A stretch of DNA of 64,000 nucleotides from assembly GCA_977862235.1 (NCBI GenBank), contig OZ374566.1, positions 1-64,000 on the forward strand, written 5' to 3'. Numbering within the stretch: position 1 is the stretch's first letter; the number at the start of each line of letters is the position of its first letter. The notes beneath the pieces were generated by a model. The model saw only the letters and a list, made by a program, of their open reading frames with translations. It had not been told where the DNA came from and ran no database searches. This document shows, one piece after another, positions 15,590 to 54,674 of this stretch. This DNA comes from Dudresnaya verticillata. Taxonomy: Eukaryota. A program made the translations under genes and the position numbers.

Positions 15590-15590
15590 C

Positions 15591-24037: not shown

Positions 24038-26906
24038 CTACTGGGCGGCCTCGCCCCCAGGACCCACGCCGGGAAAGGCGGGCGCAGAGCCCGCTGCCCC
24101 CGGCGCCGCGGGAACATAGCCCTCAACCACAGTTGTGGTTGCCGCTGGCGCCGGTGGAAGACCCCCGGCGGGAAGCGGAGGCGCCGAGCCTCCATACACC
24201 ACTGCGCTCCCACCTATGGGAGCCGCAGGGCGATAAGGGCCCATCGACGGGCCCCTCACTTGCGGAAGAACCACTTGCTGTGGCACGACGCCTGCAGCAC
24301 TGGGCGGCGCGCCTGCGCCGCCCTGAGCGCCTGGGTACATCAGTTGCCCGGCGCCTTGCCAAGGGGCAACCGGGCCAGAAGGGCCCGGAGCGTACGACTG
24401 CATCGGCTGCATCGACGCATACGCCGTCGGGGGCGGCTGGTATTCCTCGGGCAGCCTCTTGCGCACCGGCGCATAAGACATGCGCTGGACTTCCCCGCGG
24501 AGCCTCTGCACCTCGCGGGAAAAGCCGTCCCGCTCGTCGCGGTATCGAACCGCAACGGCATTGGAGGCGTTGACGTCCTCCTGCAGCACCACTGCGCTCG
24601 ATGCCAGGGCCTGCAGGAGCGTGCGTGTCGATACGCCTTGCCCGACGCGCGCCAAGGAGGCCGCGCTGCGGACAGTCGGATCGGCCCAGACTGCCGCACT
24701 CACCGCCTCGTCCAGTGGGTCGACCACTGGAGGGGGTGGGACATAGGCCACCGCCGGCGACCCATACGGGGCCGGCGGGAGCTGGTACACCTCAACGGCA
24801 GCGGCCGGAGGGGCGCGGGCCATCGACGGCTCCGTGGCAGACGGTCCTCCAACTGCCGCAGGGGCGGCGGGCGCACAACGCGCGGAAGCCCTTGGGGGCG
24901 GCGGGATGTACGACTCGGTCTCCGCCGCCATGACGGCCGCGGCTGACCCAGGGTTAGCACCCACGCCACGACGGCGACGTCCGGCGCGCTCAGCGCGGGC
25001 CATGTCGGCCATCGAGGCGAACCCGGAGCGCTCGATGCGCTCCCGTCGGTCGCGCGTGCCCCGATTGCGCTGGATCTTATAGAGGGCCCCTGTCTCTGGC
25101 AAGAAGCCACACACGAACGCGTCGACGCGTGAAGAGAAGTGACGCCTCCGCGTGTGCTTCTCGGTTGCCGCAGCTACTCGGCGGACTGCGCTGAGCAGCT
25201 AGCCGAACCCAAACGACTTGCCATCCGAAGGACGGAGCAAGTCCGGGAAACACGGCCTCTCGCTTGACCAGCCGGTCGCGAGCAAATTGATCAGGCGGTC
25301 GTCGAAGACCCAGCCTGTCCCCTTCGCGAGGAGCTCGCTGCAGTAGCGGCGGCCCACCTCGAAGGCGTACTCATCTGAGCGCCTAGCCAGGAGCTCACGA
25401 CGAGCAGCTACGCGACCGACTGGTGCGTAGTGGAAATACCGGTCTACGGTTATCCACGGGATAGTGAATCCCGATGGCGTCTCACGGTGGGAGTACCACT
25501 CCGCCGATGGCAACCAGGCCGCATCGAGCGCCGGGTGCAACTTGCACCCCTTTGACGGGCGTCCTTCGCCCGGGGCCTTGCACACATCCCAGTCCCGCTC
25601 CCCGAAGCACACCCCAAAGAGGCGGCGCGCAGAGTCGGCATCGGCCAGACGGTGCGCGAGATCCACGGGCTCGTCTACGGGCACCGTGCGCATCTCTGGG
25701 ATGGTGGCAGGCAGGGGCGGGGCCCACTTATCGGCGGGTGTCAGGAAGAGGGCATCGGCTGCCCTGTCCACCCGCCGAAGCTCCTCAAGGGAGGCGACGT
25801 AAGAAACGTCGCAGGGTAACCCCAACGGCGTGAGCCAGACTATGGCGTCCGCTGGGAGGAAAGCGGCATAGGCTGCCGCCCCTCCGTCCAAGCTCGCGTG
25901 GGCCACCCTCAGGAGCCGCCGGACGTCTGCCCGAGGCTCCTGCAGCCCGCGCCACTGATCCAGCGGGATCTGGTGGCGCGGCACCCCCAGGCGAAGACCG
26001 TCTCGGTCGGGGGCGCGTGCGGTCCAGGGGGCGCCTGGCCCATGAGGGGCAGTCCGACTGAGACCGACACCCCAACAAGAGGCACGACGGGCGCAGCGGT
26101 GGACTCACCCACGCCCGCCGGCTCCCCCTCTGCGTTGGCAGACGCCACGGGAGACGGCGTCGGGGCCGTCGACGGCCCCATGCCAGCAGAATCGCGCGGC
26201 ACAAAGGGTGCCGCCGCTGCGGGGACTTTCCCCGATCCGGATGGCGTGGGCGACCTCGACGGACTCAGGTCGAGCACCCTCGCCACCATCGGCACCGCGG
26301 AGCGCGAAGGCTGCTCCGCGGGTGCCCCTCCTCGCGTCGACGCGGGTTGATTGCTGGGAGCCTTAGGCCCTGCGCGAGGTGGGCCAGTCGGCTGAAAGAC
26401 CCGAGCCGCCGCTACTGGGCGCGGGGCGGCAGAGGCCGCCCCACTCGGGTCCTTCACTCTCTTGCCCTGCGGCGCAGGGCAAGGGCCACCGCCTCTGACA
26501 AGACGTCAGCGGCGGGCGTTGGGGTGGGGTTGGCGTCGACGCCACCCGCCCCGGCGGAAGAAGCTGGCGCCGGAGCAGGCCCGGCCTTGCCCAGCGCACC
26601 CGTCGATGGGGGCGCTTCTTCTGGCGCAACCGTCCAAGGTTGCGCCTCTTCTGTAGCGACCATCGAAAGTCGCTCTGCGGTTGGCGCGGCCGTCGAAGGC
26701 CGCGCCTCCCCGCCCGCCGGCGCCTTTGGCACCGGATCGGCAGGCCCACCCCCTACGACTGACTCAGTCGAGGAGGTGGGCTTGGTAACCGGCGTCCCCT
26801 CGCGCGGGGGCGCCGTCCGCGATCGGTTCACGTGACTCCATCGCCGCGTCGACGCTGGCGATGGGGGAGGAGGTTGAGAGCGTCGAAAGCTTGGAGCGTA
26901 TGGCAC
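24038..26906 (-). pseudogene. Gypsy-1 antisense accessory ORF: Pro/Ala-rich N-terminus, unknown globular domain, coiled-coil and Pro-rich C-terminus; fragmented
   Basis: Four consecutive minus-strand ORFs (26454-26906, 25909-26457, 25199-25984, 24038-25114) between pol and the 3' LTR. The globular part aligns by eye with ORF 51942-54674. Confidence 0.6.
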
Positions 26907-27173
26907 TGGTCTACAGGCAGCCGTACGCGTGGGGAGGGAGTGTTGGTGGTCGTGGTGAGCGATGACCAGACCACCCCACCCCTCAGAGCCGCAGAGGCGG
27001 CTCTCTAAATAGCCCGTCGCGGCTCAGCGCGGGCACACCCGACGTGGCATCGACGCCCGTCACCGACGGACGTCCGGGGGGCCGCTGGCCAATCCCGGGC
27101 GCCGTATTGGCCACCCCACAGCGTGCGCGTCGTAACGGTCGCGACCGAGGCGTTCGCGCTTGAGGGGGTGTTG

Positions 27174-28114
27174 TGTGGCATAGCTGTAAGACCAGCTGTG
27201 CCACGCACGCGCAGCTGTAAGACCAGCTGCGCCACGTGTGCACTGCTGTGCGCACGCTGTCAGCCGGTGGCGCCGAAGCCCCGCTGAACTGTAAGGAAGT
27301 GCGCAGTGGCGCGTGCAGCTGTAAGACCAGCTGTGCCACGTGAGCCCTGCTGTGCGCGCGCTGTCAGCCGGTGGCGCCGAAGCCCCGCTGAACTGTAAGG
27401 ACGTGCGCAGTGGCGCCAGCGTGCGCACGCGTACACGTGTGGCACTGAAACTCCCATGTAATTTCTACGTTTATTGTTTTGTAGTGTACCGCACTGTCTA
27501 AGTGTAAGCGGCGGTCGAACGCCCTGCTGTCCTGCGCGCGGCCCGCACGCACTCCGGCGCAGAGCCGTTGAGTGCGTGACACGCGCGCGCGCACTCCGGC
27601 GTCGAGCCGTTGAGTACGTGTGGACCGTTTCGCCCACGCGCGCCCCCGGGTTGCCGTTACCCGTACGCGTCGACGCGTGTTGGGGCGCGCCGGCGCACCT
27701 CCCGGATTGGTGCCGCCGCAGGCCCTTTAGTATATCTAGTAGTCGCCCCTCCAGGCTTCAGTAAACCAGGCAAGCCAGCCTACGCCAGGCTTGCCCTTTC
27801 TGCTTTGGGTTTCTTTCCCAGTCCTTCGCCGTACGGCTTCCCTCTTTCCCTAGCCGTCTAGGCTTTCCTTTTCCTTTCCCTACTGTCGGCTTCGTGCCGC
27901 CCCACGACGGGGACGCAGGTATCCGGCCGCTGCCGCCCGCGTACGGTACGCCCCGTGCGCGCTCAGGCTTCGACGCCGCTGATCCGCGACCGTCGACGGC
28001 GCGCGCGGCCGACACCGCCGCTCTACCACCACAGCTACCACCCTTCGACGGGTCTGGATGCGACTGATAGACCAGCGCAGCTAGACGTCAGTTCGACCTG
28101 ACGTCTATGCCACA
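27174..28114 (+). repeat. Gypsy-1 3' LTR (941 bp)
   Basis: TGTGGCATA...TATGCCACA; differs from the 5' LTR in the number of CTGTAAG-containing subrepeats. Confidence 0.93.
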
Positions 28115-28649
28115 ATATTAATATATACCCCGGGACTCTGAGAAGAATAATGAGACCGAGGAATTTTCCTGTACCGTCGCGGAAGGGGCCGTTCTTGGCC
28201 CAAACGTGATGGGGCGGCCACCCATGGCAAGAAAAAGGCGTGTCCCTCCCGGAAAGGTCGACGACGAACACCGTTACAGTGGCTGACGGGGTGTTCAGAG
28301 CGATTTCCGTGACGGAAGAGTGCCGCATAAGCGGTGGAACCTGGGCAGAGTACGCCGGCTGCGATATTGCGGAAAAACGAGAGTACCGTTTCGGGAAATG
28401 GGTCGCGTCTTCAGCAGGGTACGCGACCCACGCTGGCAAAATCCGTGACGGAGCGGTATGCCCCAGTTTGAGCAACAACGAAATCCCGTAACGGTAGCAG
28501 GCGTCGACAAGACGCAGTTCCCGTAACCGGGTCGCCACATCGCGGGGAGTTGCGATTACCGCAAGCGACAGTAGCTTGTTTTCCGTTACGGTTAGCGGCG
28601 TACCTTGGCTGGGCGTCGCAGTGGCTTTCCCTTAGCGGAGCTCTTGCCT

Positions 28650-31600
28650 TTTTGCTTTCAATAGCGGTAGATGAAGTTCTGCGGCAATTCCTCGGCGGGT
28701 TCGTAGGTATCCTGATCCGGAGGGTAGCCTTACCAGCGGACTTTGTACGTCATCCCAGTAGGTTCGTCGCGGTGACCGACAATCTTGTCGATCACATATT
28801 CCGTATCGGCTTGTAGTGGTTCCGTCGCGGAGGGAGTAGTACCTTCAGAAGGAGATACTACTGTAGTACCTTCTGGATGTGGCACTACTTCTCCGTAGAC
28901 GGTTGATGGCATGACAGGCGGCACTAGTAAGGGTGCCAGCTGAACCGCAACTCCGATCGGAACCTTCGTGATGCGATCGATACTTACGGGAATCAATACC
29001 CCTTCCTTTCGGATTGTGACAACATGTTCTGTTGCGGATTCCACTTCATGAGGCCCCGTGGCTCTCGGAAGGAGTTTCTTCATTTCCTGAGCCACCTCGC
29101 CCACATCATCCGGTTTGCCTTCCAATCGGTCCCGTTCACGGCGTTCGGCAGGCCGCAAGTTATGGGGCGGCCTGTCGACATAGACTTGATCTCCGTTACG
29201 GATTATGGGCCTAAAGCGCACCTTACGGTCAAACAGTGCCTTGGCTTTTTGCTGAGCCACTGTTTGCTTCGTGCGCGCTGTTTGGAGCGCATACCGTAAA
29301 TGGCGCATGGTGCTCCGCTTCTGTAGCACCGGGGTCATACCCCCTTCCGTAACGGTTTCTTGATGCTCGACAGGAGCCCCTCGTACAACAATGTCCGATG
29401 GGTGGTGTGTCAGCACCAAATCAAATGGCGTTGTTTCCGTAATACGGTGTACCTGCATGTTGTACGCATATGTCAACGGTTGCAGGTACAGATCCCAATC
29501 GGAGTGATGATCCTCAACGTAATGGCGCAAACGCTGAGCGATTGTCTTATTAAATCGCTCAGCTTGCCCATTTGTCTGCGGATGGTAGGCAGCGGTGAGC
29601 AGGTGCCTGACTCCAGTAAGGAACACACCGTATCGAAGAACTTAGCAGTAAACTGCGGTCCGTTATCGGTTAGGACAAATTGGGGTGCGCCGTAGGCGTA
29701 CACCCCAAAGTCCAGAAAGGCGTTAGCCACCACAACGGCTGTTGTTGTCCGTAACGGAATACAGCGCGTCAGCTTAGAGAACCGATCGGTTATTACCAAA
29801 ACGTAGACATGACCCCGTTTTGTCTTCGGAAGTGGCCCGAGAATGTCTATAGCGACAAACTCCAAAGGTCCGCTAGCGGGGAAGAGTTTCATAAACCTTT
29901 GATTCCGAAAGCGGGTTCCCTTTGTCTTCTCGCAGGAGCGACATGTCCGAACGGATTCAAATACATCGTTGGCCATATGAGGCCAATAATAATCCTGTCG
30001 GAGTGTGTAATACATCTTAATTCCGCCTGGGTGACCCGACATCAGGGTGTAGTGGGATAAATACAATACCCGTCCACGGAGTTCGCTTGGTACCACCTTC
30101 TGCAGAGCACCATCCAATTGGGACGTGCGCACCAAGAATCCGTTACGGTCATAGTCAAACTGGGATCCAGGGGAGCCTACCGTATCGGCTTTGAGACGAC
30201 AGAAAGGGTCTCTGGCTTGCCCTTCGAGGAACTCCTCCCTGGTAATTGTCTCATCCTTGACGTCGGATTCTTGGATTACAGTAAACCGTGACGGTATTGC
30301 GTCGGGCTTGTCGGGGGAGGCGGATGCACTCCCACTGGCGGGCTCCACGGCGCATATTACGTTATTTTCCGTAGCGGTTTCTTGTGATGTGGCCCAATCG
30401 GTTAAATATACTCCATGCTCATATAACCCGTCGACGGTGTTTTCGGCGACAAAGCAAGGTATTTCTTCATCCAAAGGTCTATCGTCACCGCCATCCGTTC
30501 GGAGTCGCGACATCCCATCGGCGAGTTGATGCTTAATTCCAGGACGGTATTGCACCTCGAATTCAAATTCCGATAGGCGGAGCCTCCACCTGGCTAGGCG
30601 GCCAGATGAGCCTGCGAGGTTCAGGATCCACCGCAGGGTATCGTGATCCGTTCGGAGAATAAACTTATCACCGTAAAGGTAGGGTCGGAGTGTTAACATG
30701 CTCCAGACCACGGCTAGGCATTCCTTTTCGGTTGTCGTATAGTTTTTCTCCGCATCGGTGAGGCTTCGGCTCTAGTATCCAATAGGGAGGTGATCGCCAT
30801 TCGGTTGTTCCTGCAGAAGTACACAGCCAACTTGGTGGTCACATGCGTCAGTGTCCAACGTATATTTATTTCCGTGACGGGGTAGAGCCAATATAGGTGA
30901 AGAGATAAAGCGTCTCTTCAGTTCCTCGAAGGCTTCATATTCCGTATCGGATAATATTCCAAACTCAAAGGGTGAGCCCTTGCCGGTTTTCTTATTTAGC
31001 GGTGCTGAAATCCGAGCGAAGTTGGGTACAAAGCGACGATACACGTTGCACATTCCCAAGAAGGATCGCAATTCCGTCTGGTTAGTCGGCGGCTTCGCGA
31101 CCTTAACGGATTGGATATTCCGATTATCCACTTCTAATTTTCCGGGACGGATAACATGCCCTAGGTATTGTACAGACGCGTTGAAGAAGTCACACTTTGA
31201 AAATTTCAACGTTACCCCAGCAGATCGTAAAAGCGTAAGGACTTCCTTCAGGTGGTGGAAATGTTCCGTAACGGTTTTTGAGTAGACAATTACGTCGTCT
31301 AGGTAGACGAGGGCAAATTGCCATTTAACCGTAGAAAGGATTATATCCACTGCCCGTTGGAAGGTTGCCGGTGCATTTTTCAATCCGAATGGCATTCTCC
31401 GAAAACGGTATACGCCAAAATGGCTAGTAAAGGTAGTTTTGTCCCTTTCCTCTTCCGGAATCTCGACTTGCCAATATCCGCTATTGCAATCCAGGGTGGT
31501 AAATACAGTAGCTTCCCCAAGGGAATCTATGCCCTCATCCATCCTGGGTAAGGGCTATGAGTCCCTAACCGTTACTGAATTGAGCCTTCTATAGTCAGCA

Positions 31601-32852
31601 CAGAACCGCATGGTGCCGTCCTTTTTTGGAACGAAAACCACGGGGCTGGCCCACTCCGATGAGGCTGGTTCAATTACCTTAGCGGAAAGCATGCGATCGA
31701 TCTCTGTCTTTTCGATATCTCGCTGCTTATGTCCGGCACGGCATGGAGCTTGATATACTGGCTTCGCTCCGGGAGTTAACTCGATGCGGTGCTTGGCAGC
31801 TGTAATGTTGCCAAGATCGCCACTCCACATCGATTTATATTCCTCGAGTAGGGTTAAAATCCGTTTGCGGAGCGATGCTTCTTCTGTGCCGATCTGGACT
31901 TGATCCTTCCAGTCGGTAGTATTTGTATTTTCCGTTACGGGGCTGCTTACTTCCTTGTCGTGGGGGGAGATACTGCTGGCCTTTTCGGAGGTAGGGTTAG
32001 AATTAAATGATTGAATAATTCCTCCCCCTCCTTAAATGGAGGTATACCGTTGACGGTAAAAATAGCAGAAGGGGCAGCAGTAGCGAGGCCCACGACAGTA
32101 TATTTGGGCGACCGTACCGGCTTGTTAGAAACATTAGAGACCCAGATCCGAAACGGTTTGTTAGGTACAATATCCATAATACCATTAGCCATTAACGTGA
32201 GGTGCTTAAAAGCCGGCTTAGGATGATTTTGTAGAAAGCATAACCCACCCGTGGGGGTATTAACCGTTACGGTGGTTTGCGTCATAGGGGGAATAAGGGT
32301 AGATTTGGCTAAACGAATTTTCTGAGAAACCGTAGCGGCAGAAAGAGGTGAGGGCTGTAGGGTGGCAGTGGGTCCCGTCTTCGGAATTTTGGCTTGACCA
32401 ACAAGGGATACCGGTGGGTAATGATGAAAAACAACTTTCCGTAACGGAGGGAGGATTGCCTTCACGTAGATGAAGGTAATTCCCAAAATACAGGGAGCCG
32501 CCAAGTTCGCGACCACTAGAAAATGGACGCGAGCACGGAGCTCTCCGATACGGACGAAAAGTTGGATCTGACCAAGAGGGCGTATAGCGCGATTAGACGC
32601 ATCCCATAATGGAGGACTGGTTGCTGGGCGTATGAGTGGGAGCCATTGGCGCGGAAGGCGCCTGGCACTAATGAGATTGGGCCCAGCGCCAGAGTCCAAG
32701 ACGGAGATTAAAGGAAGCATCACGCTATCTGTCCGTCCCACGGTAATTTGCATCTTGTAATTTTGATGTTGCATAAAGAAGACAGTATCATTAGTCTGAT
32801 AAGCCAATGGGAGTTCCGTAACGGTATCTCGCCGATCCCCTGGCGGGTCCAC
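28650..32852 (-). pseudogene. pol: Gypsy-2 pol (PR, RT, RH, IN, chromodomain) with several stops and frameshifts
   Basis: LDSGAG, RFCADYR, YLDD, LDTDAC, GHPG...CRSC, TDNGPQF, AERFNK, EYVIDKIVGH...YKVRW. Confidence 0.93.
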
Positions 32853-32896
32853 ACTCGCGAGAGGTGGAAAGCCGTGAGGCGGGGATGGCGGCGCCC

Positions 32897-35376: not shown

Positions 35377-35501
35377 GATACCTTAACGGAACACAACGGT
35401 TGTTCTTGCTTGTCTATCCAATATTCCGTAACGGGTTGTCGGTACAGCCGAATTCCTACTGTAGCGGATTTCGACGGCTGTTTCTGCCAACCGTGACGGT
35501 G

Positions 35502-35519
35502 TTCTAGGTCGGGAGACCA
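35502..35519 (-). promoter_or_regulatory. Gypsy-2 primer-binding site TGGTCTCCCGACCTAGAA
   Basis: Reverse complement lies 5 nt inside the LTR boundary; identical to the Gypsy-1 PBS. Confidence 0.8.
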
Positions 35520-35524
35520 AAAGA

Positions 35525-36199
35525 TGTGGTGTAGTGAAAACCCACGAACTCCGAGACGGACAGCTGGCCTGACTTTCCTTAACGGACGAGAGCAACACTA
35601 CCTCCACGGGGTGGTAGAGCAGTTCGCACCGAGACGGGAGAACAGCGAGCGGCTAACCGAGACGGATATTGGGAAGCAACAGACAAGGGGGTGGTACAAG
35701 TGCCGGGACGGACTCCGTAACGGTGGTGGTGGTAGACCGCAACGGGCCCGGCGCGGGGAAAACCGTAAAGGATTGGGCTAAGGTTGCTTACCCGTTTACC
35801 TTAGGAGCCGCTGCGGTGCCGCCCTGATATACAAGTCAGGGTGGCACCGAGCGGTCCGGTCCGTGGGGGCCAGACCCTAGTGGTCTGGTCCTATGGTGGA
35901 ATCGGCCCTGCTGGTCCCAATCTCCGACACGGACATGCGCAGCATTCTCATTGGCTGGCGCGCTACTCTACACACTTTGCACAGACTCACTAAAAATAAA
36001 GAATAAATACTACAAATACTCCGATATGGTTGGTGCGCTTCACTGTTGTACAGCAATGCGTACCGGCGTACAGCAATGCGTACGACATCCGACACGGTTA
36101 CACGTTGCCAGATCATCAGCGTGGCGTATTGCCACATCACCCGTTACGGTTGGCTCGCCGTCGGCGTGCCGCGTGCGCGCCACGGCTCACTTCACCACA
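35525..36199 (-). repeat. Gypsy-2 5' LTR (675 bp)
   Basis: TGTGGTGTAG...CTTCACCACA imperfect terminal inverted repeat adjacent to the PBS. Confidence 0.75.
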
Positions 36200-39935: not shown

Positions 39936-40024
39936 GCAAGTTCCCTCAACAGCTGCCAGCAAAGGTGTCATTGTCATGCCTTACAATGACACGTGACCCA
40001 CGCGTAACTGTAAGACCAGGTATG

Positions 40025-42995: not shown

Positions 42996-43800
42996 CCTTG
43001 CACATAAATCATCGCCGCTGCGATTGGTTGCATTAATGATACTGATGTATACTTCTATATATGTGGCGCCACGACTACCGTTCTATGAGCTCGTTCTTAG
43101 GTTCTGGCCCAGTCATTACCTCAATTTCTCCGATGCAGCAAGGATATGATTTGCACGCAATGCATTTCTCGTGTAGTAGGTGTAAGTATTAGTTATCTTG
43201 CTCAAAAACAGTCCTCAATAGCTCTTGCCTGGGCTCATACTGTGATGGACGTCCATAGTTGAAGATATCGTTGAGCGCAATTGATGCTCTCCAGACTGCT
43301 GACGCGCGTCGCTGCGCCGTTTACCTGTTCGTCTTGAAATGGGCGGGAACTTCTAACCATGCGAATCATGCTGTTCACAGCGTCTGTCTACTCAAGTGCG
43401 TGTGGCTCATCGCACTATCGAAACCAGAACAATGTTTGCCGCGAAAAAAGGCTGCCGCCGATGCTCAGCGCAGCATGTTGGCAATACTGCCAGTCAATAC
43501 CGCGTGTTACGAAGTTGTGGGGCCACATTCTATTCTTTGCACTGAACATATGTTGTTTAAGTGAGCAAACAACAGCTTCCTCCGCAATACGAGACGATCT
43601 TTTTCGCGCGAAATAATAGCTCATGTTGCCACCGAAACGATAACAGGATAGTCTGTGGTGACGTGGGAATCCCACGTTGGCGTTGTGTAGAAGACATACC
43701 ATCATCAACCGCAAAAAGGACATTGATCGAGGAATCTTGAAGCCGGTCTGGCCGCATCTACCTCCGAGTATAAATTCCCACTTTTGTTAACCAACCCCTC

Positions 43801-46348
43801 ATGAACCGTACGGTCGCACCCCCGGAACACTTCTCCCTTCTCTTCTGGGCACGACGTGCAGCTTCCCGAGAACGAGGGGATTACGTAATGGCTCCAGCAA
43901 GGCAGAAGCCATCCGCCCGGCAGCGCGGGCGACCCAAAAACACTTCGCAAAAGCTTGCGAAGTTCCGTGAGGATTTCGAGGCGCAAGAGCTTGCAAGCGG
44001 AAAGACTACTCAGGGCAGTCAGCCGAGTTCTGGGAAGGCAACGCCATCACCAAATTCGCGGAGGAGAACCAGACAATCTCCGTCGAGTTCCGGCGGCTCA
44101 GCCAATCCTCGAAGAAAATTCATCCTGGACTCAATTGATGACGCAACCGACATCCCACGCACAACAAAATCTTTATCACTACGGAAGAGGCGTGTGCAAG
44201 GACCCAGAGTCCCACCAGTATCTGGTAAAAAGCGCTTTCTACCTGTTTCAAAAGGTCATGAGGAGGATCTTGCCGACTCGGATCACAGTAGGTTGCGCAA
44301 CAATGGAGAAGAGTGCACGCAATCGATCGACAAGGAATTGACACGCCCATCGAAGAAAAGGAAGGAATATCTCACACCCGAACGCAGGCGTAATTCCCCT
44401 CTCAACTCGAGATTAATGTCCGGTAGCGCTACCAATTCAGATCGGCCATCGCCGATCGCCAGTCGACCAGGAGTTGGTGTTGAAGGTGCTCCTCGCGAAG
44501 ACTGCTCTTATGGGGAGGAAGCAGGGGAACAATACCCAGAATTTATTGATGAAGATGAAGATGTTCGTGCTAGTTCAGTACCAGGATCAGCCATGAGGAC
44601 ACGTAGAGGTGATGTCACAGAGGAGCCTCTGGCCAAAGGTAGCATTCTGCCCGCTTGTTCCCGCGATGATGATTTAGTCGGTCAAGAAATTAATTGCTCA
44701 ATTGAGCCTATCGTCACCACCGATGGTTTTCCACGTCCTCGGACTCCTACAGATACCGATTTTCTGTCCAGGCTTATATCCTCTGTGGCAAGAGATATAT
44801 CTCGACAAAATGAAGATCTTCACAAGGCATGTTTGGCAGCAATCAGGATGTTTGAAAGCAAACTCTCCTCGGAGATGAAGACGCTTCGAGAGGAGACTGC
44901 TGATATGGTTGTATCGATGCCTAAGGGTCGGAGTCCTCGTGGACTTTCGCAAGTCAAGAATGAGGTTAAAACCACTTTGGGACAATGGGAAAAAATTGAA
45001 TGACCTCACCCCTTTCAAAAACCTTGTGTTCTGCTCGTCCGTGTTTTCGCGAGTACTCGTCTATAATGTCCCTCTTATCATTGTGCAGATCTGCAAGGAG
45101 GTTCGTACTGGGTTACCCAGAGCGAGCGGTAAACGGGAGGCCGTTCTTCAGAATGCTTCAGAGGCGTTGTCCACACTGATGTTCAGTCTTATGCCTAACG
45201 AATCTTGTAAGAAATTCGAAGAAGGTATCGGGAAGAGGCACGGGAACTTCAGGTTTACAGTTATGCAAAATGCTTTCTATAATGTCCAACGAGACAGCTT
45301 TGGCTTCTTCAAGAAATCAGGCAGTTGTTCTTCACCTGGAACCAGTTCACATACGCCGAAGTCGACAACCGATGGCCCCGTCGACCAACCTTTGTGGACT
45401 AAGCCCGGTTACGTCACTTTGAATTCATTACACGCCGCTCGGCAACAACTGGAACAGAAGAAGGACACTCGTAAGACGAGAGTGAAGGACATCCCAGCCA
45501 AATCAGATGTGGCTACACATGCAGCCACGAAAGGATTTCGTTATCTTATCTCGCATCTTCATGACGGACGCGAGAGGCTCCGTTCTATGTTTTTCCAAGA
45601 TCTTGGATATCTTCTCGTGAACTGGAATGAGTTTATCCCAGATGTGGACCAGCGGAATCTCAAGCTGAGCTGGATGGATCAAGTCACAGTCGATTTGGAT
45701 ATGGAGAGAAGATATCTGTCGCTCGACGATGTTCCGGAAATGAATGTGCACCGTGGAGGCCCGACCACAGAAACAGATGCTAAGAACAAAGCAGAGTTGG
45801 AGGACTTCTTTGCTGAATGCCCGGAGATGACGCTTGTCGCTGAGCATGAAGTTTTTGTTCTGTCCGGTCCTCCCAATAAGTCAAGACAGAGGAAACATTC
45901 TGGTGGTGAGAACAAGGTAATCCGCCATAAGATCAATCTTATTGACGTATCCTGGAACTTTATCAGCGACTATACGAAGGCTGAAGATGGATGGTCTTTC
46001 CTTCGAGCGTAAGCGTTAGCTTTGAAGAGCATTTAAGCGACCGCAATGGTTCTGAGAGAGCTGGTAGATATTTACATCCGGTCGCTCGACCCGAGCACTG
46101 GAATTCGTCCAAAGTTAGAATCGATCGAGATAGGACCCACTAGCATAGCCTTGCTCATGCCCGGCAGAGGGACTCAGGGAACGCTCATAGGGAGTCTTTG
46201 TATTCGATTGACTGAGGCAGAGTTTGCTGCCCTACACCAGCCCATGTTCGATCGAAACGAGAATGAGGAAAGTCCCCTTGAGGATGAAAGGGATGACGCA
46301 ATGGTTGAGGTTTCAGACGACGTGGGTGTTGTTGCACTTGCAATTTGA
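43801..46348 (+). pseudogene. Unknown protein (disordered basic/Ser-rich N-terminus, helical C-terminus) with frameshift and stops
   Basis: ORFs 43801-45003, 44909-46012 and 46046-46348 form one coding-like run. Confidence 0.55.
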
Positions 46349-47197
46349 GTTTAAAATACTCAGCACTAAATGCAGTGGCGCCACTGGGCGCCCTTGATCA
46401 GACAAGGCATAGAGCAATCAAACTAAGTTTTTGCAAGCACAACGAGACATATATGTATCACGCGATGATAAGAATTCGTATCCATGCAGGCATGCCTATA
46501 CGCATACATGCATTAACCAGCGTAGGTTTGTGCAGAGTAGTCTGAATAATGAATGGTGCTTCTCAAATCAATAAAGGGGTATTAGTTTCCATGAAAGATG
46601 AGCCGTTTTTGTCTCCTAGCTTGAGCCTAGCTTGAGCCCGGCTTCTGGCTGAAAACGAGCGTCTGAGAAGAATGGTTGGGAACGTGCGAGCTTGATGGTT
46701 CAGTGATGATGTCCCGCACGGAGATTTGACCTTCTACCGAGTCTTTCTGCTGTTGTTACTGTAGGAGGTGATACATTGCGGATATTGGCCAGAGGATAGC
46801 AATCAATTGTGAAACGCTAGTACGAGGGTGGAAAATCTCGATCGAGATTACTTCGAACCAATGACCGTGCAAGCGCTCACTTTCCAGCAATGAAAATGTG
46901 AATTGGTAAGCGTTACTGATTAGACTCCTAGTCCAGCAGGCAATACCATCCACAAGTGCCCCGGGGCACGGCGGAACTCGTGCGTGTGCAATGGGGCACT
47001 GCATGCAGCTGCTGTAGCTAGTGCTAGCAGCTGCTAGTGAGTGCTGTAGCATGGAGATGGTGTTCTGGAGTGGAGTATTGCATGCGCATGCCATGCGTCA
47101 TAGCGCGTTGGGAGGCCACCCTCAACTCAGCGCAGGTAATAATATCAATGCGGGTATCCGGATATGCTGCGTTTTATTAGTGACATTACAATACACA

Positions 47198-50100
47198 CTA
47201 CCCCATTCTTGGTGGGAATCCCTGTGATCTGCTTTGAAATCTCATCTTGGAACCTCTTAGAATGCTGCCACGATGTAGAACCTTACCCGTATTTCGATCG
47301 TAAGGACATAACTTGCCGTCTTCAGATCTGCAGTCGTGGTATAATGATATTCTTCTAACGCTATCACCTATTCTCATCCATTGGGCCGCATCCGAACTCA
47401 GTGGCTTTTCCATCATAATCATGTTGGACTCCTTTATGCAGCGCTGCACCAGAATCCAGCTATCGCCATGTCGAATCTGAGCCATGCCGATGACAACATA
47501 TTGTTGCAATTGGGCACCATTCTTGGAAGTGCAACAAAAAATCTTATTATTCATATCTCCTGGATGTACAAGAGCTTGAATGGCATTCCCTGGGCATATT
47601 ACATTATATCCGCCGACCGAGGAGATGTTGTTCCCGTCTTCTGGTTCCGACTGGACTCTTTTACAAGTATTAAACAGCGTCAGCTCCGATTTCACGACTT
47701 CGTGCCCGTGAATTGTAGGGTTCCACTCTCGAAGGCAATTAATGCAACTTTCAACGATAGCATTCACTTCCTCCGGTCGATCGACAATATATTCAGATGC
47801 AGTAGTCCTTTCTTTGATGCATTTCCATACCGTAGCATTCGGCGACGAGAAGTTGGATACCAGTGACCTTCCTTTCAAGAGCCTCTTGACTGGTGCGGAA
47901 AGTTGACCATTGAGGCAGTTGTCAATTTTCGCAATTATTGCAGGATGCTCATCTTCTACCAGTCCTTCTGCCACTGCCCCTAGCATGAACTTCCGTAGTT
48001 CTCGTCGAGCGACCTTGTTATTACTGACTTCTTCAGCTGTTAACTGCCTGGAGACATTGGCAAGACGACCTTGCCAGTCATTTCCAATGCAGTGCTCCAC
48101 TGCAGAGACATGTGCCTTCCGGTAGTTCGATCGAGCGATACATCTCTTTAGCGGCTGATGAGCATGTTCAAATAAAAGCTCGGTAAATTCTCGGACGTGC
48201 CCCATGATAGGGATGGAATGAAAATAGAGTTCTAGAAGCCTGTGTAGATTCGGTTTGTCCAGAAACCCTTTCAGATCAGGAAACTTGGAGCAAACGCGAT
48301 TCACTGATGATACATAATCCTTCGCCATAGCCTGTAGCTCCTGAGTATATATTGAGCGACCGGTGCCACACACGAAACTCACAGCTCTCCCTCCATCCAC
48401 ATCTTTTTCAGGCCACCAGTACGTATAACCTAATAATTTCTGAAGCTTCTGCAGTAGTCGAACGAGTCGACGTGGAAGATCCGTTTCATTTGTCGAGTGA
48501 CTTCGTAAGGGTAGCATTATGTCCATCACCTGGGAAGCGACGCAAACGACACAAAAGAGACTGGACAGGCTCATGCTGTTCATCTTCTTTGACGCTGGGT
48601 TATAAACTCTCTTCTGCTTGAGCAAGCCGTTTCCTGACAAAGCATGAACTATGTACCTGTCGGCAACGAGCCGTAGCCCTTTCGGAAATGCATTGAAGAT
48701 TGTATCCATTATATTGCTGGCAAAACCGGACAGAAGGTGGTCAGGGGCGACAAAGTTCGAGCGATATGCATCAAACAATCCTGAAACGACGGCGCTCCCC
48801 GAAATAGACCTTGGAATGAGATTTTGTACCTCCTCGAATCGTTCCTGTATATATAGCAACGGGCAGCTTTCTTCATCCACTCTAACTGCTGGTTTCATGC
48901 CCAGAATATTAGCATTTCTGTCACTCAGACCAGCATCTCGGAGTGCTCCTTGCCTTTCCCCTGTTCGAGCGAACGCAGAATCCTGACAATGTATCAGAGT
49001 AGTGTATCCATTCTGTGTCGATTCATCGTGATTACGTTTCTCCTTCCTGAATGTACAAAGAGTGCATGGAGTTTTTGCAATGTGTCCTAGTAGATCTACG
49101 ACATGGGCTGATGCAGGATAGTCCCCGATAAAACCGACGGCATCGATGAATATCCTGACGTCTTCACCACTGGGTGTTTTTCCCTGTATTCCATCTACCA
49201 TGGCCTTCATGAGATCATCAACAATAAAATGCAATACCTCATTAGTAGAAACGCCCGTTGGTGTGAGAGAAATAATTCGAACTGCCGAAGTGCTTCGTCG
49301 AGATTCTGCAGCAAGCCCAATTGGGAGCATGTAGCAACCTCCGGCAGAGCCTTGGGGAAACAATGAGGAACCCGGCTTAAAGTCGTCACAATAAAGTAGA
49401 ATTCTATATACAACGTACTGGGTACCATCTTGCAGAATCCCTTTGTTGGGCTCCGAATCTGCCAACTGATGAGGCTCCTCTTCGCTGGTCAGGTTGCGTA
49501 GTTTTTGAACAACTTGCCTGAGCATGGGTTTAAAGACTCCCTCTTCTTGTTATTTGGTTACCCAAAGCAAGGAAAGTGAAGGGATGCTGTCATTTTCTCT
49601 CATGTGTGCATGAACAATTATTATATAGGTTCTGGCGGTACTTTGTTCCTTCGGTTTCAACAAAGTACACTGATCTCCAGGGAACAACGAAAGGATGCGT
49701 TCCATAGCTGTAAAGTGCCCCTTGTCCATAACAGAACCTGAAAACAGCTTGACGACCGTCTTCTCATCCGCTGTCAATTCGGTCAGGGCGACGGCTTCCT
49801 TAAAGCTTCTATTATGTTTCTCCTTGTGTCCAACGCACCAAACGCGGAGCATCTTAGCTCTAATTCGAAACGAGCTTGAGGTGGTTGAAATTTTGTAGCT
49901 TTGGTAGAGGGCTGGCACTTGCCCTGAGACAACTAGCTCTAGATGACATCCTGGACCTGCTTGCTTCAGGAACCCTGAAGCATCTTCTACAAAAATATGT
50001 TGCCCCTGTAACAGGACTTTCTTCCGAGACTTGACAAGGGCTGAGCTCTCAAACGTCCTCTTAAAAACTCTAGTGCCTGACGGTCGTTGCTCACCGACTC

Positions 50101-51193
50101 CTGCGTACAGCTGGTCGTAAACACAGCTTGTTGCAATATCTAGAAGCGCCCATGAAGACGGCAATACAATACGCACCTCACCAATTCCGGGTCCCGTCTG
50201 TCTACTCGAGCGAGTCAGCTCCATTTCAGGACTCTGAGTAAACTGCACTTCTGCAGGGTCGACTTGTTCATTAAGCTGGTCGTTAATCACTCGTAAATCT
50301 TCTAATGGGAAGAACTTGATGACGCTCTTCGGGAATACCGTGCGAAGCAGCCTATCATAGAACCTTTTAACTGCTTTGTAGGAAGGAAGAGCTTCCTCGT
50401 GGTCCATACTGTTCACAATTGATCTGACAATATCAAACTGTTCAACCGAAAACCTCACACTGCTAGTTACCATTAACGTAGAAAGTAATCGGTTCTTGTT
50501 AGACCACTTCTTAAGTTCCCTTTCCAGAATACGTAAGTCTATGCCTAGTGATGTCGATCGACACGATTTTGCCACACCTGCCAAGTCTGATGAGCCTCCA
50601 AACTCCTTTTCGGCATCTCCCTCATCGTGTACTAGGTCTAGCATCTCGAGATGATCATCTTCCTCATCACTGCTCCGATGCTCATCACGTCCTGCGCTTC
50701 CCTCAATTTCCGAGCTGAAAGGGAGAAAGTCTACCCCGGACTCCCTATTATGTCGTTCGACTCTAAGTTGTTCTAATATGACTTCCGATGCAAGCGCTGT
50801 AGAACCTTGAGGCCGTCGAGTGCTGGATTCAGCTCCTTCAATGACTTCTTCGTCATAAAATGGTTCCTGTAATTTGTCAATATCCCTGTTCGCAATCGTG
50901 CCTATTGTGGATGGGAATCCCCTGTCTTGAGGTAAATCGGTACTGGCAGGTTCGTGCCTGTCTTCATCTCTTTCCTCGTCGAGTGCTGCGGACTGCCACG
51001 GCGGTGCTTCAGGAATTTCTTCTGCGTGGTCTTCCAAGTGTATATCGCTCGATACGACTGCTTGCTGATCGTGACCTCTTCTCTCCCGATATGGATCGAA
51101 TCTAGATTGTGCAAGACTCTGGAGCCATGTGGAGTTCTCAGAATATCTCTTCCGCTTCCGAGGCATGACCGAGGAGATCGAAATATAATACAA
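47198..51193 (-). pseudogene. CACTA/EnSpm-Plavaka-like (CMC-type) DDE transposase, about 1330 codons, with one in-frame stop at 49550
   Basis: LLYCDDF, FIGDYPA...PCTLC, VAPDHLLSG (D-x-H box), KPNLHRLLEL, ELLFEHAHQPLK. ORFs 49550-51193 and 47198-49525 are in the same frame, 24 nt apart. Confidence 0.75.
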
Positions 51194-51941
51194 TGACTCG
51201 AGTCACTGTTCACAGAATCCAAAAATGTTGCAGAGCTGTGCAACAAGGAGTTGAGATGAACAGGTAGTGCGATCGCACGATCTTTATGATGACTTCTGAG
51301 CTCAGCCGTAGGGTTGCATGTCCAATAATAACAGGGTAGACCAACAATGACATTGTTCTCCAGGCAAACCGTGGCTTGGTTTTTGAAGGCACGCGCGCGT
51401 CATTGTCGTTTGATCATACCGCACGATAATGGCATTAATCTCCATTGCTCCAGGCCATGATGTGCATTGTCTGCAGCATTTCATTGGCCAAGATCGATCT
51501 CGATTCTGCTGGCGAAAGCTCATGCGTGCTGTCGCGGGGTACATACCAGCGAAAAACCAGATGGCATGCCGCTGCAAAAGCTGTTACCAGCTAGCTGCTG
51601 CCAGCACTGTGTATGTGCCGGCACATGCTGGCTCGAGCCAGCTGCAGCAGCACTATGCGTATGCCATGTGACAACCTCAGCAAACAGCTCAAACCGCAAG
51701 CGTGCAGGACCCTGCGTCGACGCAATGTTAAGCATAATGGGGAACATCGATTCGAAGCAGGTTCCGATTCCGGGGCAAGAGTCGAGCGACGAAAATGTTG
51801 ATACTCTACTCCATACAAAAAGGGTTTTCCTTGAAGTATTTGAATATTGTGGGCTGTTGTCCAGGAGCATTGTCCATTAGAAGAGCCGCGAGAGTGTCGA
51901 GAACTTAGTTCAGTACTAGTGCCATGTGGTGCTAGCAACAT

Positions 51942-54674
51942 ATGGAAGCGGTGTGGCGCGTAAACACTCACAATTGTCATGTTGAACCAATATTGAATGC
52001 AATGATGCAACGGCTTAACGCGCCTGCCCCCGCCGTGTTGACTTCCGCGGCGCTTGCTCCACCAGCTGCAAAGACGCTCGTCTCCGCACCGGCTTCCGCC
52101 GACGCGTCTGCTCCACCAGTTCTACCGACGCTCGTCTCTATGCTGGTTGCTCCGCTTGCTTCTACCGCTCAGGGAAGTGCTCGAGCGAGCGCTGTACCAG
52201 GTCGGCATGCTGCAAGCTCTGTATCTGTTTTGGCTTACGTGCCGGCTTCCCCCGCCGCGCCTCCAGCACTGGAATCACCGACGAGTGCATCCACGCCGGT
52301 CGCCAATCCTGTGCCACCTGCTTCTACCGCTGCTGTAAGTGCTCGTGTGTCTACAGATGGATCACGTCAAGTTGCTACGCCGGCTTCCGCCGCCGCACCT
52401 TCCGGACAAGTGATAACGACGCTCGTTGCTATTGCCCCAACTACAGATACGCTCGAGAGTACAGAGCCTGTTCGCGCCGCACCATCGACGCTCGACACGG
52501 AACCGGTCGCCGCCGCTGCGCCTGCTCATCCAGCTGCGCCTCCTTTGTCCGCGGCCACACCTTTTTCTGGAGTCGCGTCAACAGCGCCTAACTCCACAGC
52601 TGTGCCTGCTCGGCCTTGCGCGCCCAGTGCTCCAGTTGCGGAGAGCCTGCCAGCCGGTTTCATTAGCGCACGTGGACCCAAGGATGCAGTCGATCCAGCC
52701 GCCATTACAGATCCTCATCACCTCAAGCGAACTAGAGATTTGCAGCAGCCGTCGTCTGTTCTCCAGTACGCCATTGAGGTCGGCATTGAGAAGGCGAGTT
52801 CGTCTAAGTTTGGAAGCAGTGTCGCGCAGCCAGTTCCCCTGTCAAAGGGTATCGCGCCATATCCGGGTACTCGCGCGACAAACGTTCTTTATCCAGAGAA
52901 AAGAAGGCCCCCGTCAGTGCTGAATCATCTTCGCCTGCAAGGTGTGCATCAGTGGTCCTATGAGCCTGTGCAAAGGCTCTCCTACAAGACCTATGTTGTT
53001 GAGAACGACAACCCACGAGCAGACATAGCTCGACTCAAGTATCTCGCGTCGCTCGACACTCGGTGTGCACGGGTATCGCTGCAAACATGGCAGGAGTATT
53101 GTGAGGAGCCTCGTTATCGTGTTCCATTCACGCTGTATTGCGACCGTACCTTTTGTCGTGACGGATTTGAGGCGTACTATCTTTATGCCATGGACATCTT
53201 GCTGAGTAATGATGACCTGGAGATCACAATGGAAAACCTCCCGCTGCTGAAGGACAGGGTGACCGATAGAAGGTGGTTTGCATTTGCCCAGCGGCCCGTA
53301 TTCTTCCGGGAACTGCACAACCGGATCTTGCACGACGTTTGGATTGCGTCGGATAGCTGCACGAGTCGCGAAATCGACACCCTCCCTCTATCTACTCTGC
53401 GGGATGACTTCCCAACACCTCCGAAATGGCTCGAGCAGTTCCACCAGCCGGCCGGACTCCCGGTACCGGCTCCTTTGGTTCTGTACTACTATCATAGGGA
53501 GCTTCGTTCGCAAGATGACGCTCGTCGTACGAAGAGGGTGGATAAGCTGCAGAAGGCCTTGAAGCTGGAATACGTCGTCATGTTTGTGGCTGCATGGTTC
53601 TTGGAAGCTGCTTTAGGGTCCAGGCAGTTCATTGTCCCGTTTGAAACCATTGAGGAGCCCGGAAAAATAATTGGGGATGTGACGATCGTCAAGAATGTCT
53701 CCAACGCGTATATTCTGTCCTTGATGCGCCTCGCCGCTGTGTCGGATTCCAAGCTGTACAACTGCTTCCACTTCGTGCGTTACTCGTGGATGATGGCTCA
53801 AAATGTTCGCGACACAAAGCCACCGGTTCCAGACAGTATCTTCTTGTGGGCGAAGAAAGGGACAGGAATCATGGACACGCAGGAGCCTTCCGGGAAGTTA
53901 TGCTTTGCCTCTTTGTGGACGAGGAATATGTCTGGAGCCGTGAAGACTGCGAAAAGGTGCGAAGAAGATTGGAAGTCTGCTCTTGACGCAGTGCTGCGTA
54001 CAGAAGACTACGACAGGGTGCCAGGTTTAAAGACTCTAATTCGCGCTCGGGGTTGGGATCAGTCGAGCGACCTTACTGTTGGAGATATTATCAAGAATCT
54101 CCTCGGGGTTCACAAGCAGTCCTTGAACACGTCCATGCGAACTGCGAATATGTACAATGACGATCGTCAACAGCAAGGATATGGCGATGATGGATACTAT
54201 GACCGCGGTCAGAAGCGCAGGTTGGGGGTTGGGTATCGTGATGCTTATTATGGAAATACGGGCAATGACGGTTACAGTTCCCAGCGCCATCGTATTTCGT
54301 ACGATGGATGGGACAATGCTGTGGATGGGAGAACTCTTCGTACTTCGGATGCCAGGCGTGGTTATGACTCTCGCTACAACCAAGAGTTCACTTCCTGGCG
54401 TCAGAATCTAAGCAGTCCTTATCATGGGTTGGAAAGACGTCGAAGCATCGGAGCAGGCTACTATGACGAGCGTCGTGCCGAGGGACGCCCCAGTACTGGA
54501 GCAATTGCTCCAGCGCCGTTGGAAGATGAACCGCGGCCGAGGACGGGCACTCCAGCACAAGTTGTTGACTGCACTGCTGCACGGGTAGACCGCAGCGGCA
54601 GCCGAGATCCGACGATGATGGAGAATAGGCATCCAAGCTCCTTCCGTGACTACTTTGCCAACTCTGAAAAGTAG
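51942..54674 (+). CDS. 910-aa unknown protein: Pro/Ala-rich N-terminus, aromatic-rich globular core, Gly/Tyr/Asp/Arg-rich tail
   Basis: Long uninterrupted ORF; its core aligns by eye with the Gypsy-1 antisense ORF 25199-25984. Confidence 0.75.
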   Translation: MEAVWRVNTHNCHVEPILNAMMQRLNAPAPAVLTSAALAPPAAKTLVSAPASADASAPPVLPTLVSMLVAPLASTAQGSARASAVPGRHAASSVSVLAYVPASPAAPPALESPTSASTPVANPVPPASTAAVSARVSTDGSRQVATPASAAAPSGQVITTLVAIAPTTDTLESTEPVRAAPSTLDTEPVAAAAPAHPAAPPLSAATPFSGVASTAPNSTAVPARPCAPSAPVAESLPAGFISARGPKDAVDPAAITDPHHLKRTRDLQQPSSVLQYAIEVGIEKASSSKFGSSVAQPVPLSKGIAPYPGTRATNVLYPEKRRPPSVLNHLRLQGVHQWSYEPVQRLSYKTYVVENDNPRADIARLKYLASLDTRCARVSLQTWQEYCEEPRYRVPFTLYCDRTFCRDGFEAYYLYAMDILLSNDDLEITMENLPLLKDRVTDRRWFAFAQRPVFFRELHNRILHDVWIASDSCTSREIDTLPLSTLRDDFPTPPKWLEQFHQPAGLPVPAPLVLYYYHRELRSQDDARRTKRVDKLQKALKLEYVVMFVAAWFLEAALGSRQFIVPFETIEEPGKIIGDVTIVKNVSNAYILSLMRLAAVSDSKLYNCFHFVRYSWMMAQNVRDTKPPVPDSIFLWAKKGTGIMDTQEPSGKLCFASLWTRNMSGAVKTAKRCEEDWKSALDAVLRTEDYDRVPGLKTLIRARGWDQSSDLTVGDIIKNLLGVHKQSLNTSMRTANMYNDDRQQQGYGDDGYYDRGQKRRLGVGYRDAYYGNTGNDGYSSQRHRISYDGWDNAVDGRTLRTSDARRGYDSRYNQEFTSWRQNLSSPYHGLERRRSIGAGYYDERRAEGRPSTGAIAPAPLEDEPRPRTGTPAQVVDCTAARVDRSGSRDPTMMENRHPSSFRDYFANSEK

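What the first reader, a model, noticed from the sequence alone, without database searches (positions are those of the whole stretch)
25199..54674. One unannotated protein domain is shared by the Gypsy-1 antisense ORF and the 910-aa ORF next to the CACTA-like transposase
Seen: three blocks align without internal gaps by eye (about 25285-25620 minus vs about 53295-53655 plus). LF-x8-WDV vs FF-x8-HDV; WYSHRETPSGFTIPWITVDRYFH vs WLEQFHQPAGLPVPAPLVLYYYH; then ARR...EYAFEVGRRYCSELLAKGTGWVFDDRLI vs ARR...EYVVMFVAAWFLEAALGSRQFIVPFETI. Both proteins have a Pro/Ala-rich N-terminus, this core and a low-complexity tail. I do not recognise the domain. Inference: a TE accessory family present in both retroelement and DNA-transposon contexts, and a candidate reader of the dispersed palindromes (anti-silencing or targeting factor). 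The link to the motifs is a hypothesis.
Basis: partly seen in the sequence, partly recalled or inferred. Interest (0 to 1): 0.85.

Follow-up and report, generated by a model that had tools for sequence, protein, structure and literature searches.

The report
Orphan domain shared by algal transposons
A retrotransposon and a DNA transposon in what is likely a red seaweed each carry a distant copy of the same unnamed protein domain and each is studded with its own short DNA palindrome, which the protein is predicted to read and which would help the element escape silencing.

Summary
The shared domain is real, although the direct comparison is not significant (BLAST E 0.2). A search of 1.84 billion proteins found 32 relatives, 27 like the 912-aa protein and 5 like the Gypsy protein; none of the 30 looked up has a name. 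Profiles of the two groups, built without either window protein, align at 99.2% probability (E 1.8e-19). There is no Pfam match for the core. The model is confident (pLDDT 86) but has no clear structural match. The 912-aa gene is intact and lies in a 17.6-kb CACTA-ended, Plavaka-like transposon. The Gypsy copy lies antisense between pol and the 3' LTR and is broken. Each element carries its own CpG palindrome, also inside coding DNA: CGTCGANG in Gypsy-1 (57 of 70 sites) and WCGAKCGW in the CACTA element (41 of 44). That the protein binds these motifs and counters silencing, as plant VANC/PMD proteins do, is inferred and untested (about 0.4). It may be the already named, function-unknown red-algal gene PAG1, whose sequence I could not obtain.

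The parts
14722..28114 (+). Gypsy-1 LTR retrotransposon (gag, PR-RT-RH-IN, weak chromodomain match), decayed; no target-site duplication
   Evidence: LTR pair 95.4% over 806 nt; RVT_1, RNase H, integrase, Chromo E 0.002 below cut-off; flanks TTGAT / ATATT differ
14722..15589 (+). Gypsy-1 5' LTR
27174..28114 (+). Gypsy-1 3' LTR
24038..26841 (-). Antisense accessory gene of Gypsy-1 between pol and the 3' LTR; broken by frame changes upstream of the core and an in-frame TAG. The start at ATG 26841 and the continuation into 25198-24038 are inferred
   Evidence: frames; only ATG between 27049 and 26701 and a TATA-like site at 27011; the continuation is only weakly supported
25127..25981 (-). Shared domain, Gypsy copy (profile match runs across the TAG at 25201-25199)
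   Evidence: 70.3 bits, iE 2.7e-21, profile of 32 relatives
40343..57960 (.). 17.6-kb CACTA-ended, Plavaka-like DNA transposon; 16-nt imperfect terminal inverted repeats (14 of 16 match), GG on both flanks read as a 2-bp target duplication
47198..51202 (-). Plavaka/EnSpm-like transposase, split by an in-frame stop at 49552-49550
   Evidence: PF18759 E 0.014, below cut-off; C-x2-C motif in the translation
51936..54674 (+). Intact 912-codon ORF (P0002; first ATG 51942), divergent from the transposase: Pro/Ala-rich residues 1-318, folded core 319-735, low-complexity tail
52920..53912 (+). Shared domain, DNA-transposon copy
   Evidence: 239 bits, iE 1.1e-72
53955..54122 (+). Small C-terminal helical domain (residues 674-729), also present in 7 P0002-type relatives; weak structural likeness to MerR/excisionase-type folds
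   Evidence: 38.8 bits, 0 of 300 shuffles; Z 3.0-4.3
41130..43082 (-). Second orphan accessory gene of the CACTA element (three in-frame segments separated by stops)
   Evidence: no informative Pfam match
43774..46012 (+). Third orphan accessory gene of the CACTA element (two overlapping frames)
   Evidence: no informative Pfam match
40671..57255 (.). 41 dispersed WCGAKCGW sites (W=A/T, K=G/T), signature of the CACTA element, many inside coding DNA
   Evidence: 41 of 44 in the window; P0002 12 vs 1.5 and transposase 10 vs 1.2 expected, 0 of 300 synonymous shuffles each
14722..28114 (.). 57 dispersed CGTCGANG sites, signature of Gypsy-1
   Evidence: 57 of 70 in the window; CGTCGA 96 vs 13.6 expected, 0 of 200 shuffles
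28115..36200 (-). Gypsy-2, cut off at its 3' side by the Gypsy-1 LTR; carries its own palindrome CCGTNNCGG but no copy of the domain in the window
   Evidence: 55 of 63 sites; 33 vs 4.2 in coding DNA, 0 of 300; no domain match

Best explanation
Both genes encode distant members of one unnamed, folded protein domain carried as a passenger by an LTR retrotransposon and a CACTA-type DNA transposon, and each protein is predicted to bind the short CpG palindrome scattered through its own element, which would shield that element from host silencing. Shown: homology, location in the two elements, a confident fold, element-specific palindromes that reach into coding DNA. Inferred: DNA binding, pairing of each protein with its own motif, the anti-silencing effect, and that selection for more sites wrote the motif into the element's codons. 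The Gypsy copy in this window is dead; an intact family member would act in trans.
For: Homology. The two window proteins fall in separate deep subfamilies (split 100/100), as expected if each has a long history with a different target. Both carrier elements have their own motif. In the CACTA element the pattern TCGNNCGA ranks 1 of 1669 in the transposase ORFs and 2 of 1438 in P0002, scored independently. The motifs occur in all three codon phases, so amino-acid choice does not explain them. In a blind motif search of 11 coding sets only Gypsy-2 gag-pol, the transposase and P0002 beat all 60 shuffles. The architecture (low-complexity arms around a folded core, coiled-coil-like stretch in some relatives) and the antisense position between pol and 3' LTR parallel plant TRP28/PMD genes (PMC11963269, PMC5418596). 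VANC binds element-specific short motifs and removes methylation (PMC5735166), and is reported to share a fold with the PMD protein MAIN (PMC13547354).
Against: No DNA-binding fold was found for the main core (best Z 3.2), and the MerR/excisionase-like hits of the small C-terminal domain (Z 3.0-4.3) are within background. That small domain is not shown for the Gypsy protein. Only two elements link domain and motif. Gypsy-2 has the strongest motif and no copy of the domain in the window; it is truncated where the gene would lie, so the case is open. Gypsy-1 gag-pol did not beat the blind-search null (z 3.9-4.1 vs maximum 4.9), 10 of its 14 coding sites share one phase, and the Gypsy core itself has no excess (1 vs 0.5). 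VANC motifs sit mainly in non-coding tandem repeats, unlike these. The relatives were retrieved with a hybrid profile of both window proteins, which favours cross-matching sequences, and the P0002-type profile scores P0001 directly at only 4.2 bits (best of 500 shuffles 1.0).
Confidence: 0.42

Rival explanations
1. The domain is a real shared accessory protein but works through protein contacts (chromatin adaptor, cofactor or silencing suppressor); the palindromes are read by something else, such as the transposase, another accessory gene or a host factor.
For: No DNA-binding fold for the core. Two further orphan genes in the CACTA element. Gypsy-2 has a motif with no domain in view. Earlier unchecked notes describe element-specific palindromes beside ParB-like genes in other genomes.
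Against: Gypsy-1 has no transposase and no other detected accessory gene, yet it has its own motif; the shared domain is the only gene found in both motif-bearing elements. Three different motifs in three neighbouring elements are hard to assign to one host factor.
Confidence: 0.33
2. The domain is an enzyme of unrecognised fold that marks or unmarks CpG DNA or chromatin at the motifs, like the methylase, SET and oxygenase cargo of other red-algal Plavaka elements.
For: PAG2 and PAG3 are predicted modifying enzymes (10.1101/2025.02.11.637652, section 8). All three motifs hold two or more CpGs. R361, D363, R366, C402, E412 and E545 are conserved in both subfamilies.
Against: No likeness to any enzyme by sequence or fold. 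C402 is kept in only 15 of 21 P0002-type rows, and most of the best-conserved positions are Pro, Trp and Tyr, which suggests a structural role.
Confidence: 0.17
3. The Gypsy copy is a functionless captured piece of a DNA-transposon or host gene, and the domain is a host family.
For: The Gypsy copy is broken. No DNA context was obtained for any relative.
Against: P0001 belongs to its own subfamily, with three relatives that span the whole core without a break (P0013, P0027, P0033), far from the P0002 type. Its gag and pol are broken too, so the whole copy is decaying. None of the 30 clusters looked up has a named member.
Confidence: 0.07
4. The likeness between the two ORFs is chance.
For: BLAST E 0.2; shuffle z at most 3.5.
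Against: Profile-profile 99.2%, with two separate thirds significant and the reversed control at 0.04%; the P0001-type profile scores P0002 at 49 bits against at most 5.9 for 300 shuffles.
Confidence: 0.01

Closest known systems
Giant red-algal Plavaka elements and accessory gene PAG1 (bioRxiv 10.1101/2025.02.11.637652; abstract, passages and section 8 read, supplements not seen)
   Same: Size (17.6 kb vs 17.4-19.1 kb), EnSpm/CACTA lineage, three accessory genes, one with no detectable domain; PAG genes are reported to move between transposon families.
   Different: No N6-methylase or SET domain was found in this element's long ORFs. The text read does not mention an antisense LTR-retrotransposon copy or palindromes inside coding DNA. 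Whether P0002 is PAG1 could not be tested.
Plant mobile domain (PMD) proteins: PMD-A in Gypsy elements, PMD-C in MULEs and host MAIN/MAIL (PMC5418596 and 10.1101/2024.09.27.615353; passages read)
   Same: One accessory domain shared by Gypsy retrotransposons and DNA transposons; host members associate with short motifs, one of them palindromic, and oppose Polycomb silencing.
   Different: No Pfam PMD match in 34 aligned members; PMD is described in flowering plants; binding is not shown here.
VANC anti-silencing proteins of VANDAL transposons (PMC5735166 and PMC13547354; passages read)
   Same: A transposon-encoded accessory protein together with a short motif specific to that element family.
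   Different: VANC motifs lie mainly in non-coding tandem repeats; here they are dispersed CpG palindromes that also sit in coding DNA. No VANC structure appeared in the fold searches. VANC is confined to DNA transposons of eudicots.
TRP28 antisense ORFs of plant Retand/Grande/RIRE2 Gypsy elements (PMC11963269 abstract and discussion; PMC7264820 first 10,000 characters)
   Same: Antisense gene between pol and the 3' LTR, of unknown and possibly DNA-binding function.
   Different: No Pfam match to that domain. Retand is a non-chromovirus lineage, whereas Gypsy-1 has a weak chromodomain match. The Retand paper found no likeness of TRP28 to other known transposons, whereas this domain is also in a DNA transposon.

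Membership tests
PAG1 (red-algal Plavaka accessory gene 1) | Sequence similarity to Bostrychia PAG1 | not testable with these tools
PAG1 (red-algal Plavaka accessory gene 1) | Domain-less accessory gene inside a 17-19 kb Plavaka-type element | tested here: met
   17.6-kb element; no Pfam family; two other orphan genes fit this description equally well
Complete PAG1-3 cassette | PAG2 with N6-methylase (PF01555) and SET (PF00856) domains in the element | tested here: not met
   Neither family in the element's main long ORFs; shorter and overlapping frames were not scanned
EnSpm/CACTA (CMCT) transposon | CA..TG termini and a 2-5 bp target duplication (PMC12730594, passages) | tested here: met
   CACTAC at both ends, GG on both flanks
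Plavaka lineage | Plavaka transposase (PF18759) and lineage termini | tested here: inconclusive
   E 0.014, 15.1 bits against a cut-off of 26.3; termini differ from fungal PlavakaA (TGT) and PlavakaB (CATCA); no transposase tree built
PMD / VANC | Sequence match to a Pfam model of the plant mobile domain | tested here: not met
   No such family among 34 members at E up to 1
PMD / VANC | Shared fold with VANC21 / MAIN | tested here: inconclusive
   Not listed in Foldseek or VIA searches; whether VANC21 is among the chains compared was not checked, and no AlphaFold DB library was on hand
VANC-type system | Short motif enriched specifically in the cognate element | tested here: met
VANC-type system | Motifs mainly in non-coding tandem repeats | tested here: not met
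   22 of 41 CACTA-element sites lie in the transposase and P0002 ORFs; spacing is indistinguishable from random
VANC-type system | Protein binds the motif and lifts silencing | not testable with these tools
   Needs DAP-seq or EMSA and expression in vivo
TRP28-type antisense ORF | Antisense position between pol and 3' LTR | tested here: met
TRP28-type antisense ORF | TRP28 (Transposase_28) domain | tested here: not met
   No Pfam match; a likeness of the middle motif recalled from memory was not tested by profile comparison
DUF6698 / DUF6532 (fungal) | Pfam match or a repeatable language-model match | tested here: not met
   Atlas 0.92 with 152 of 256 shared features for P0002 320-740, not repeated with relative P0005 (best 0.78); no Pfam hit

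The most novel reading that the evidence does not exclude
A new-fold family of transposon-encoded, sequence-specific DNA readers that has moved between LTR retrotransposons and DNA transposons in red algae, each version co-evolving with its own CpG palindrome that selection has written even into the element's codons: an independently evolved counterpart of the plant VANC/PMD anti-silencing system, and the first such reader-motif pair in a retrotransposon.
Probability: 0.3. Interest if true: 0.9.

Novelty: new variant of a known kind. Interest (0 to 1): 0.72.

Why it matters
How transposons escape silencing is worked out for few families, mainly the plant VANDAL/VANC system, and how red seaweeds silence transposons is described as unexplored (10.1101/2025.02.11.637652, section 8). 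This window gives a directly testable pair: an intact protein with a confident model (P0002) and a predicted 8-bp target specific to its own element, with the neighbouring elements' motifs as built-in controls. If binding holds, it would give a function to an orphan accessory family (possibly PAG1) and to a retrotransposon antisense ORF, add a possibly new DNA-binding fold, and explain element-specific palindromes hidden in coding DNA.

Tried and rejected
No whole genome is held for this window, so copy number and intact family members could not be examined. Word-indexed protein searches found nothing for either core and 1 protein with the family alignment. No sequencing run was listed, which says nothing about expression. 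DNA context of relatives: none in viral contigs, metagenome contigs or prokaryote genomes; a degenerate pattern gave 56 loci, and 0 of 56 matched the family profile beyond the motif itself. The single-sequence fold failed (pLDDT 31). Fold searches gave no match: Foldseek PDB and viral, 0 at E up to 0.001; VIA wide, 0 of 48,161 at Z 5 or more; VIA second look, 0 of 93 at Z 2 or more. This does not show the fold is new; the model is over 400 residues and its domains were not folded alone. No P0001-type protein was folded, so the two folds were not compared. The Gypsy ORF was not searched in the Atlas. The DUF6698/DUF6532 lead was dropped. The LRLxGV likeness in the two-sequence alignment is spurious: it lies upstream of the frame change. 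That ORF 25198-24038 continues the same protein is only weakly supported (15 of 500 and 6 of 500 shuffles reached the score for two relatives, 111 of 500 for a third; tail profiles gave at most 1.2 bits; the tail ranges were badly chosen and redone). One pol segment was out of frame and redone. Literature searches with no paper describing this domain or these motifs: 0 papers; only the Bostrychia preprint bore on it; the library lacks most subscription journals. Earlier-finding look-ups by sequence, place or words were blank.

Full report
Setting. The window starts with a telomeric array (AAACCCCT, 1-850) followed by nested transposons. The host is inferred to be a red alga: the repeat resembles the TTTTTAGGGG telomere of Bostrychia, and giant Plavaka elements are described from red seaweeds. 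No genome is held, so the host was not determined.

The two genes. P0002 (51936-54674, plus) is an uninterrupted ORF of 912 codons: residues 1-318 are 36% Pro+Ala, then a core, then a low-complexity tail. It lies divergent from a Plavaka-like transposase (51202-47198) inside an element whose ends I located: CACTAC-starting inverted repeats at 40343 and 57960 (14 of 16 match) flanked by GG, 17.6 kb in all. Two more orphan genes lie in the element. P0001 (26104-25199, minus) lies antisense between pol and the 3' LTR of Gypsy-1 (14722-28114; LTRs 95% identical, no target duplication). This gene is broken: its Pro/Ala-rich start is in other frames (33% Pro+Ala), the F-x-W motif kept in all five close relatives sits in a different frame near 25990, and a TAG at 25201-25199 falls inside the profile match. 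Gag, pol and the CACTA transposase also carry stops or frame changes.

Is the likeness real? Pairwise it is borderline (E 0.20; z -0.5 to 3.5 over 20 settings). A profile of the two cores searched against 1.84 billion proteins gave 32 hits at E up to 0.001. Scored against each window protein alone, 27 are P0002-type and 5 are P0001-type; all 5 and nearly all 27 are significant for their own seed at library scale. Profiles of the two groups without the window proteins align at 99.2%, E 1.8e-19; the first and middle thirds are each significant, the last third is not, and a reversed control scores 0.04%. The P0001-type profile scores P0002 at 49 bits (300 shuffles, best 5.9). The P0002-type profile scores P0001 at only 4.2 bits (500 shuffles, best 1.0), so P0001 is tied in mainly through its five relatives. 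The hybrid search favours cross-matching sequences, which inflates these numbers somewhat but cannot create two colinear significant regions. A tree of 27 rows (25 of 32 hits; 7 short fragments left out) separates the two types by a long branch with 100/100 support, which argues against a recent exchange between these two elements. Positions conserved in both types include W340, R361, D363, R366, P397, C402, E412, P436, P511 and E545 (P0002 numbering).

What is the domain? The core has no Pfam family in 34 members (only coiled-coil and chance hits), no NCBIfam family for the window proteins and no solved relative by sequence. None of the 30 of 32 clusters looked up has a named member; nine further cluster members showed no fused known domain. 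With the 34-row alignment AlphaFold2 gives a confident, mostly helical model (pLDDT 86.2, pTM 0.79; 31 without alignment). Fold searches found no clear match. The best rows (Z 4.3 down to 3.0) cover mainly a small C-terminal domain, residues 679-735. They include 6hn7, TorI, a putative excisionase and GlnR-DNA, which I recall as MerR/excisionase-type DNA-binding folds. The tool rates such scores as background, so this is a lead only, and the small domain is not shown for the Gypsy protein.

The motifs. It survives synonymous-codon shuffling in pol (10 vs 3.2, 1 of 1000) and gag (4 vs 0.5, 0 of 1000) but not in the P0001 core. The CACTA element has a different signature, WCGAKCGW, with 41 of 44 sites inside its ends: 12 vs 1.5 in P0002 and 10 vs 1.2 in the transposase (0 of 300 each). 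These motifs were picked from the same data; as a guard, TCGNNCGA ranked 1 of 1669 patterns in the transposase and 2 of 1438 in P0002 when each was scored alone. Gypsy-2 has a third, CCGTNNCGG (55 of 63; 33 vs 4.2 in coding DNA). In a blind search of 11 coding sets, three beat all 60 shuffles (Gypsy-2 gag-pol, transposase, P0002) and eight did not, among them Gypsy-1 gag-pol, the two other CACTA accessory genes, hAT, the recombinase and the host-like ORF. Sites fall in all three codon phases and are spaced as at random.

Mechanism. Homology, placement and motifs are shown; binding, pairing and anti-silencing are inferred from two elements and from the VANC/PMD precedent. I put it at 0.42, ahead of a protein-contact role with another reader (0.33), an unknown enzyme (0.17), a functionless capture or host family (0.07) and chance (0.01). 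Gypsy-2 is the open case: strongest motif, but cut off where an antisense gene would lie.

Comparison with what is known. It would work like VANC and PMD proteins, but membership fails by sequence and is inconclusive by fold. A domain shared by Gypsy and DNA transposons is known for PMD (PMC5418596, passages). VANC binds element-specific motifs in non-coding repeats (PMC5735166, passages) and resembles MAIN in fold (PMC13547354, passages). Host PMD proteins associate with motifs and oppose Polycomb (10.1101/2024.09.27.615353, passages). Antisense ORFs of plant Gypsy elements are of unknown function (PMC11963269, abstract and discussion; PMC7264820, first 10,000 characters). Red-algal Plavaka elements of 17.4-19.1 kb carry PAG1-3, PAG1 without a known domain, and these genes move between transposon families. 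P0002 may be PAG1; the preprint's Supplemental Table 6 and Figure 13, which I could not see, bear directly on this and on whether LTR carriers are already known. Terminal features come from PMC12730594 (passages); 10.64898/2026.08.24.746577 was seen as abstract and outline only. My searches found no paper describing this domain in a retrotransposon or such palindromes in red-algal elements.

Verdict. Observation confirmed and extended; interpretation partly supported. New variant of a known kind; interest 0.72.

Noticed in passing
window 28115-36200: Gypsy-2 carries the palindrome CCGTNNCGG about every 150 bases, in all three codon phases of gag and pol; the strongest coding-embedded motif in the window.
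   Followed up: partly
window 6725-8716 (+) beside 2697-4988 (-): A tyrosine-recombinase-like ORF (PF00589 E 0.023) and a divergent ORF pair whose C-terminal part has an H-x-D...H pattern recalling 2OG-Fe oxygenases, with 48- and 49-bp tandem repeats nearby; could be a Crypton-like element with a PAG3-like gene. No Pfam, NCBIfam or PDB support.
   Followed up: partly
window 8700-12500: hAT element (PF05699) with ATGCCCG concentrated at its ends (13 of 21 copies) rather than in the coding DNA, a contrast to the dispersed palindromes.
   Followed up: partly
window 36770-37940 (+): Truncated DEAD/RecQ-like helicase gene (PF00270 E 1e-9) followed by 27/28-bp and longer direct repeats.
   Followed up: no
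window 14722-14830, 27174-27420, 40012-40244, 12540-13800: The word CTGTAA/TTACAG recurs in tandem repeats at the start of both Gypsy-1 LTRs, in a 58-bp array and in an unexplained GC-rich stretch left of Gypsy-1 that may be the remnant of another LTR element.
   Followed up: no
window 56818-57354 and 40781-40977: 46-bp and 99-bp tandem arrays inside the CACTA element, 440-600 bases from its ends, sharing a related word in opposite orientation.
   Followed up: no
window 14722 and 28114: Gypsy-1 has no target-site duplication and abuts a 3'-truncated Gypsy-2, which suggests a deletion or recombination after insertion.
   Followed up: partly
window 61726-63999 (-) and 58247-58636: An open host-like ORF without Pfam match, and a 12-bp tandem array of 33 copies.
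   Followed up: no
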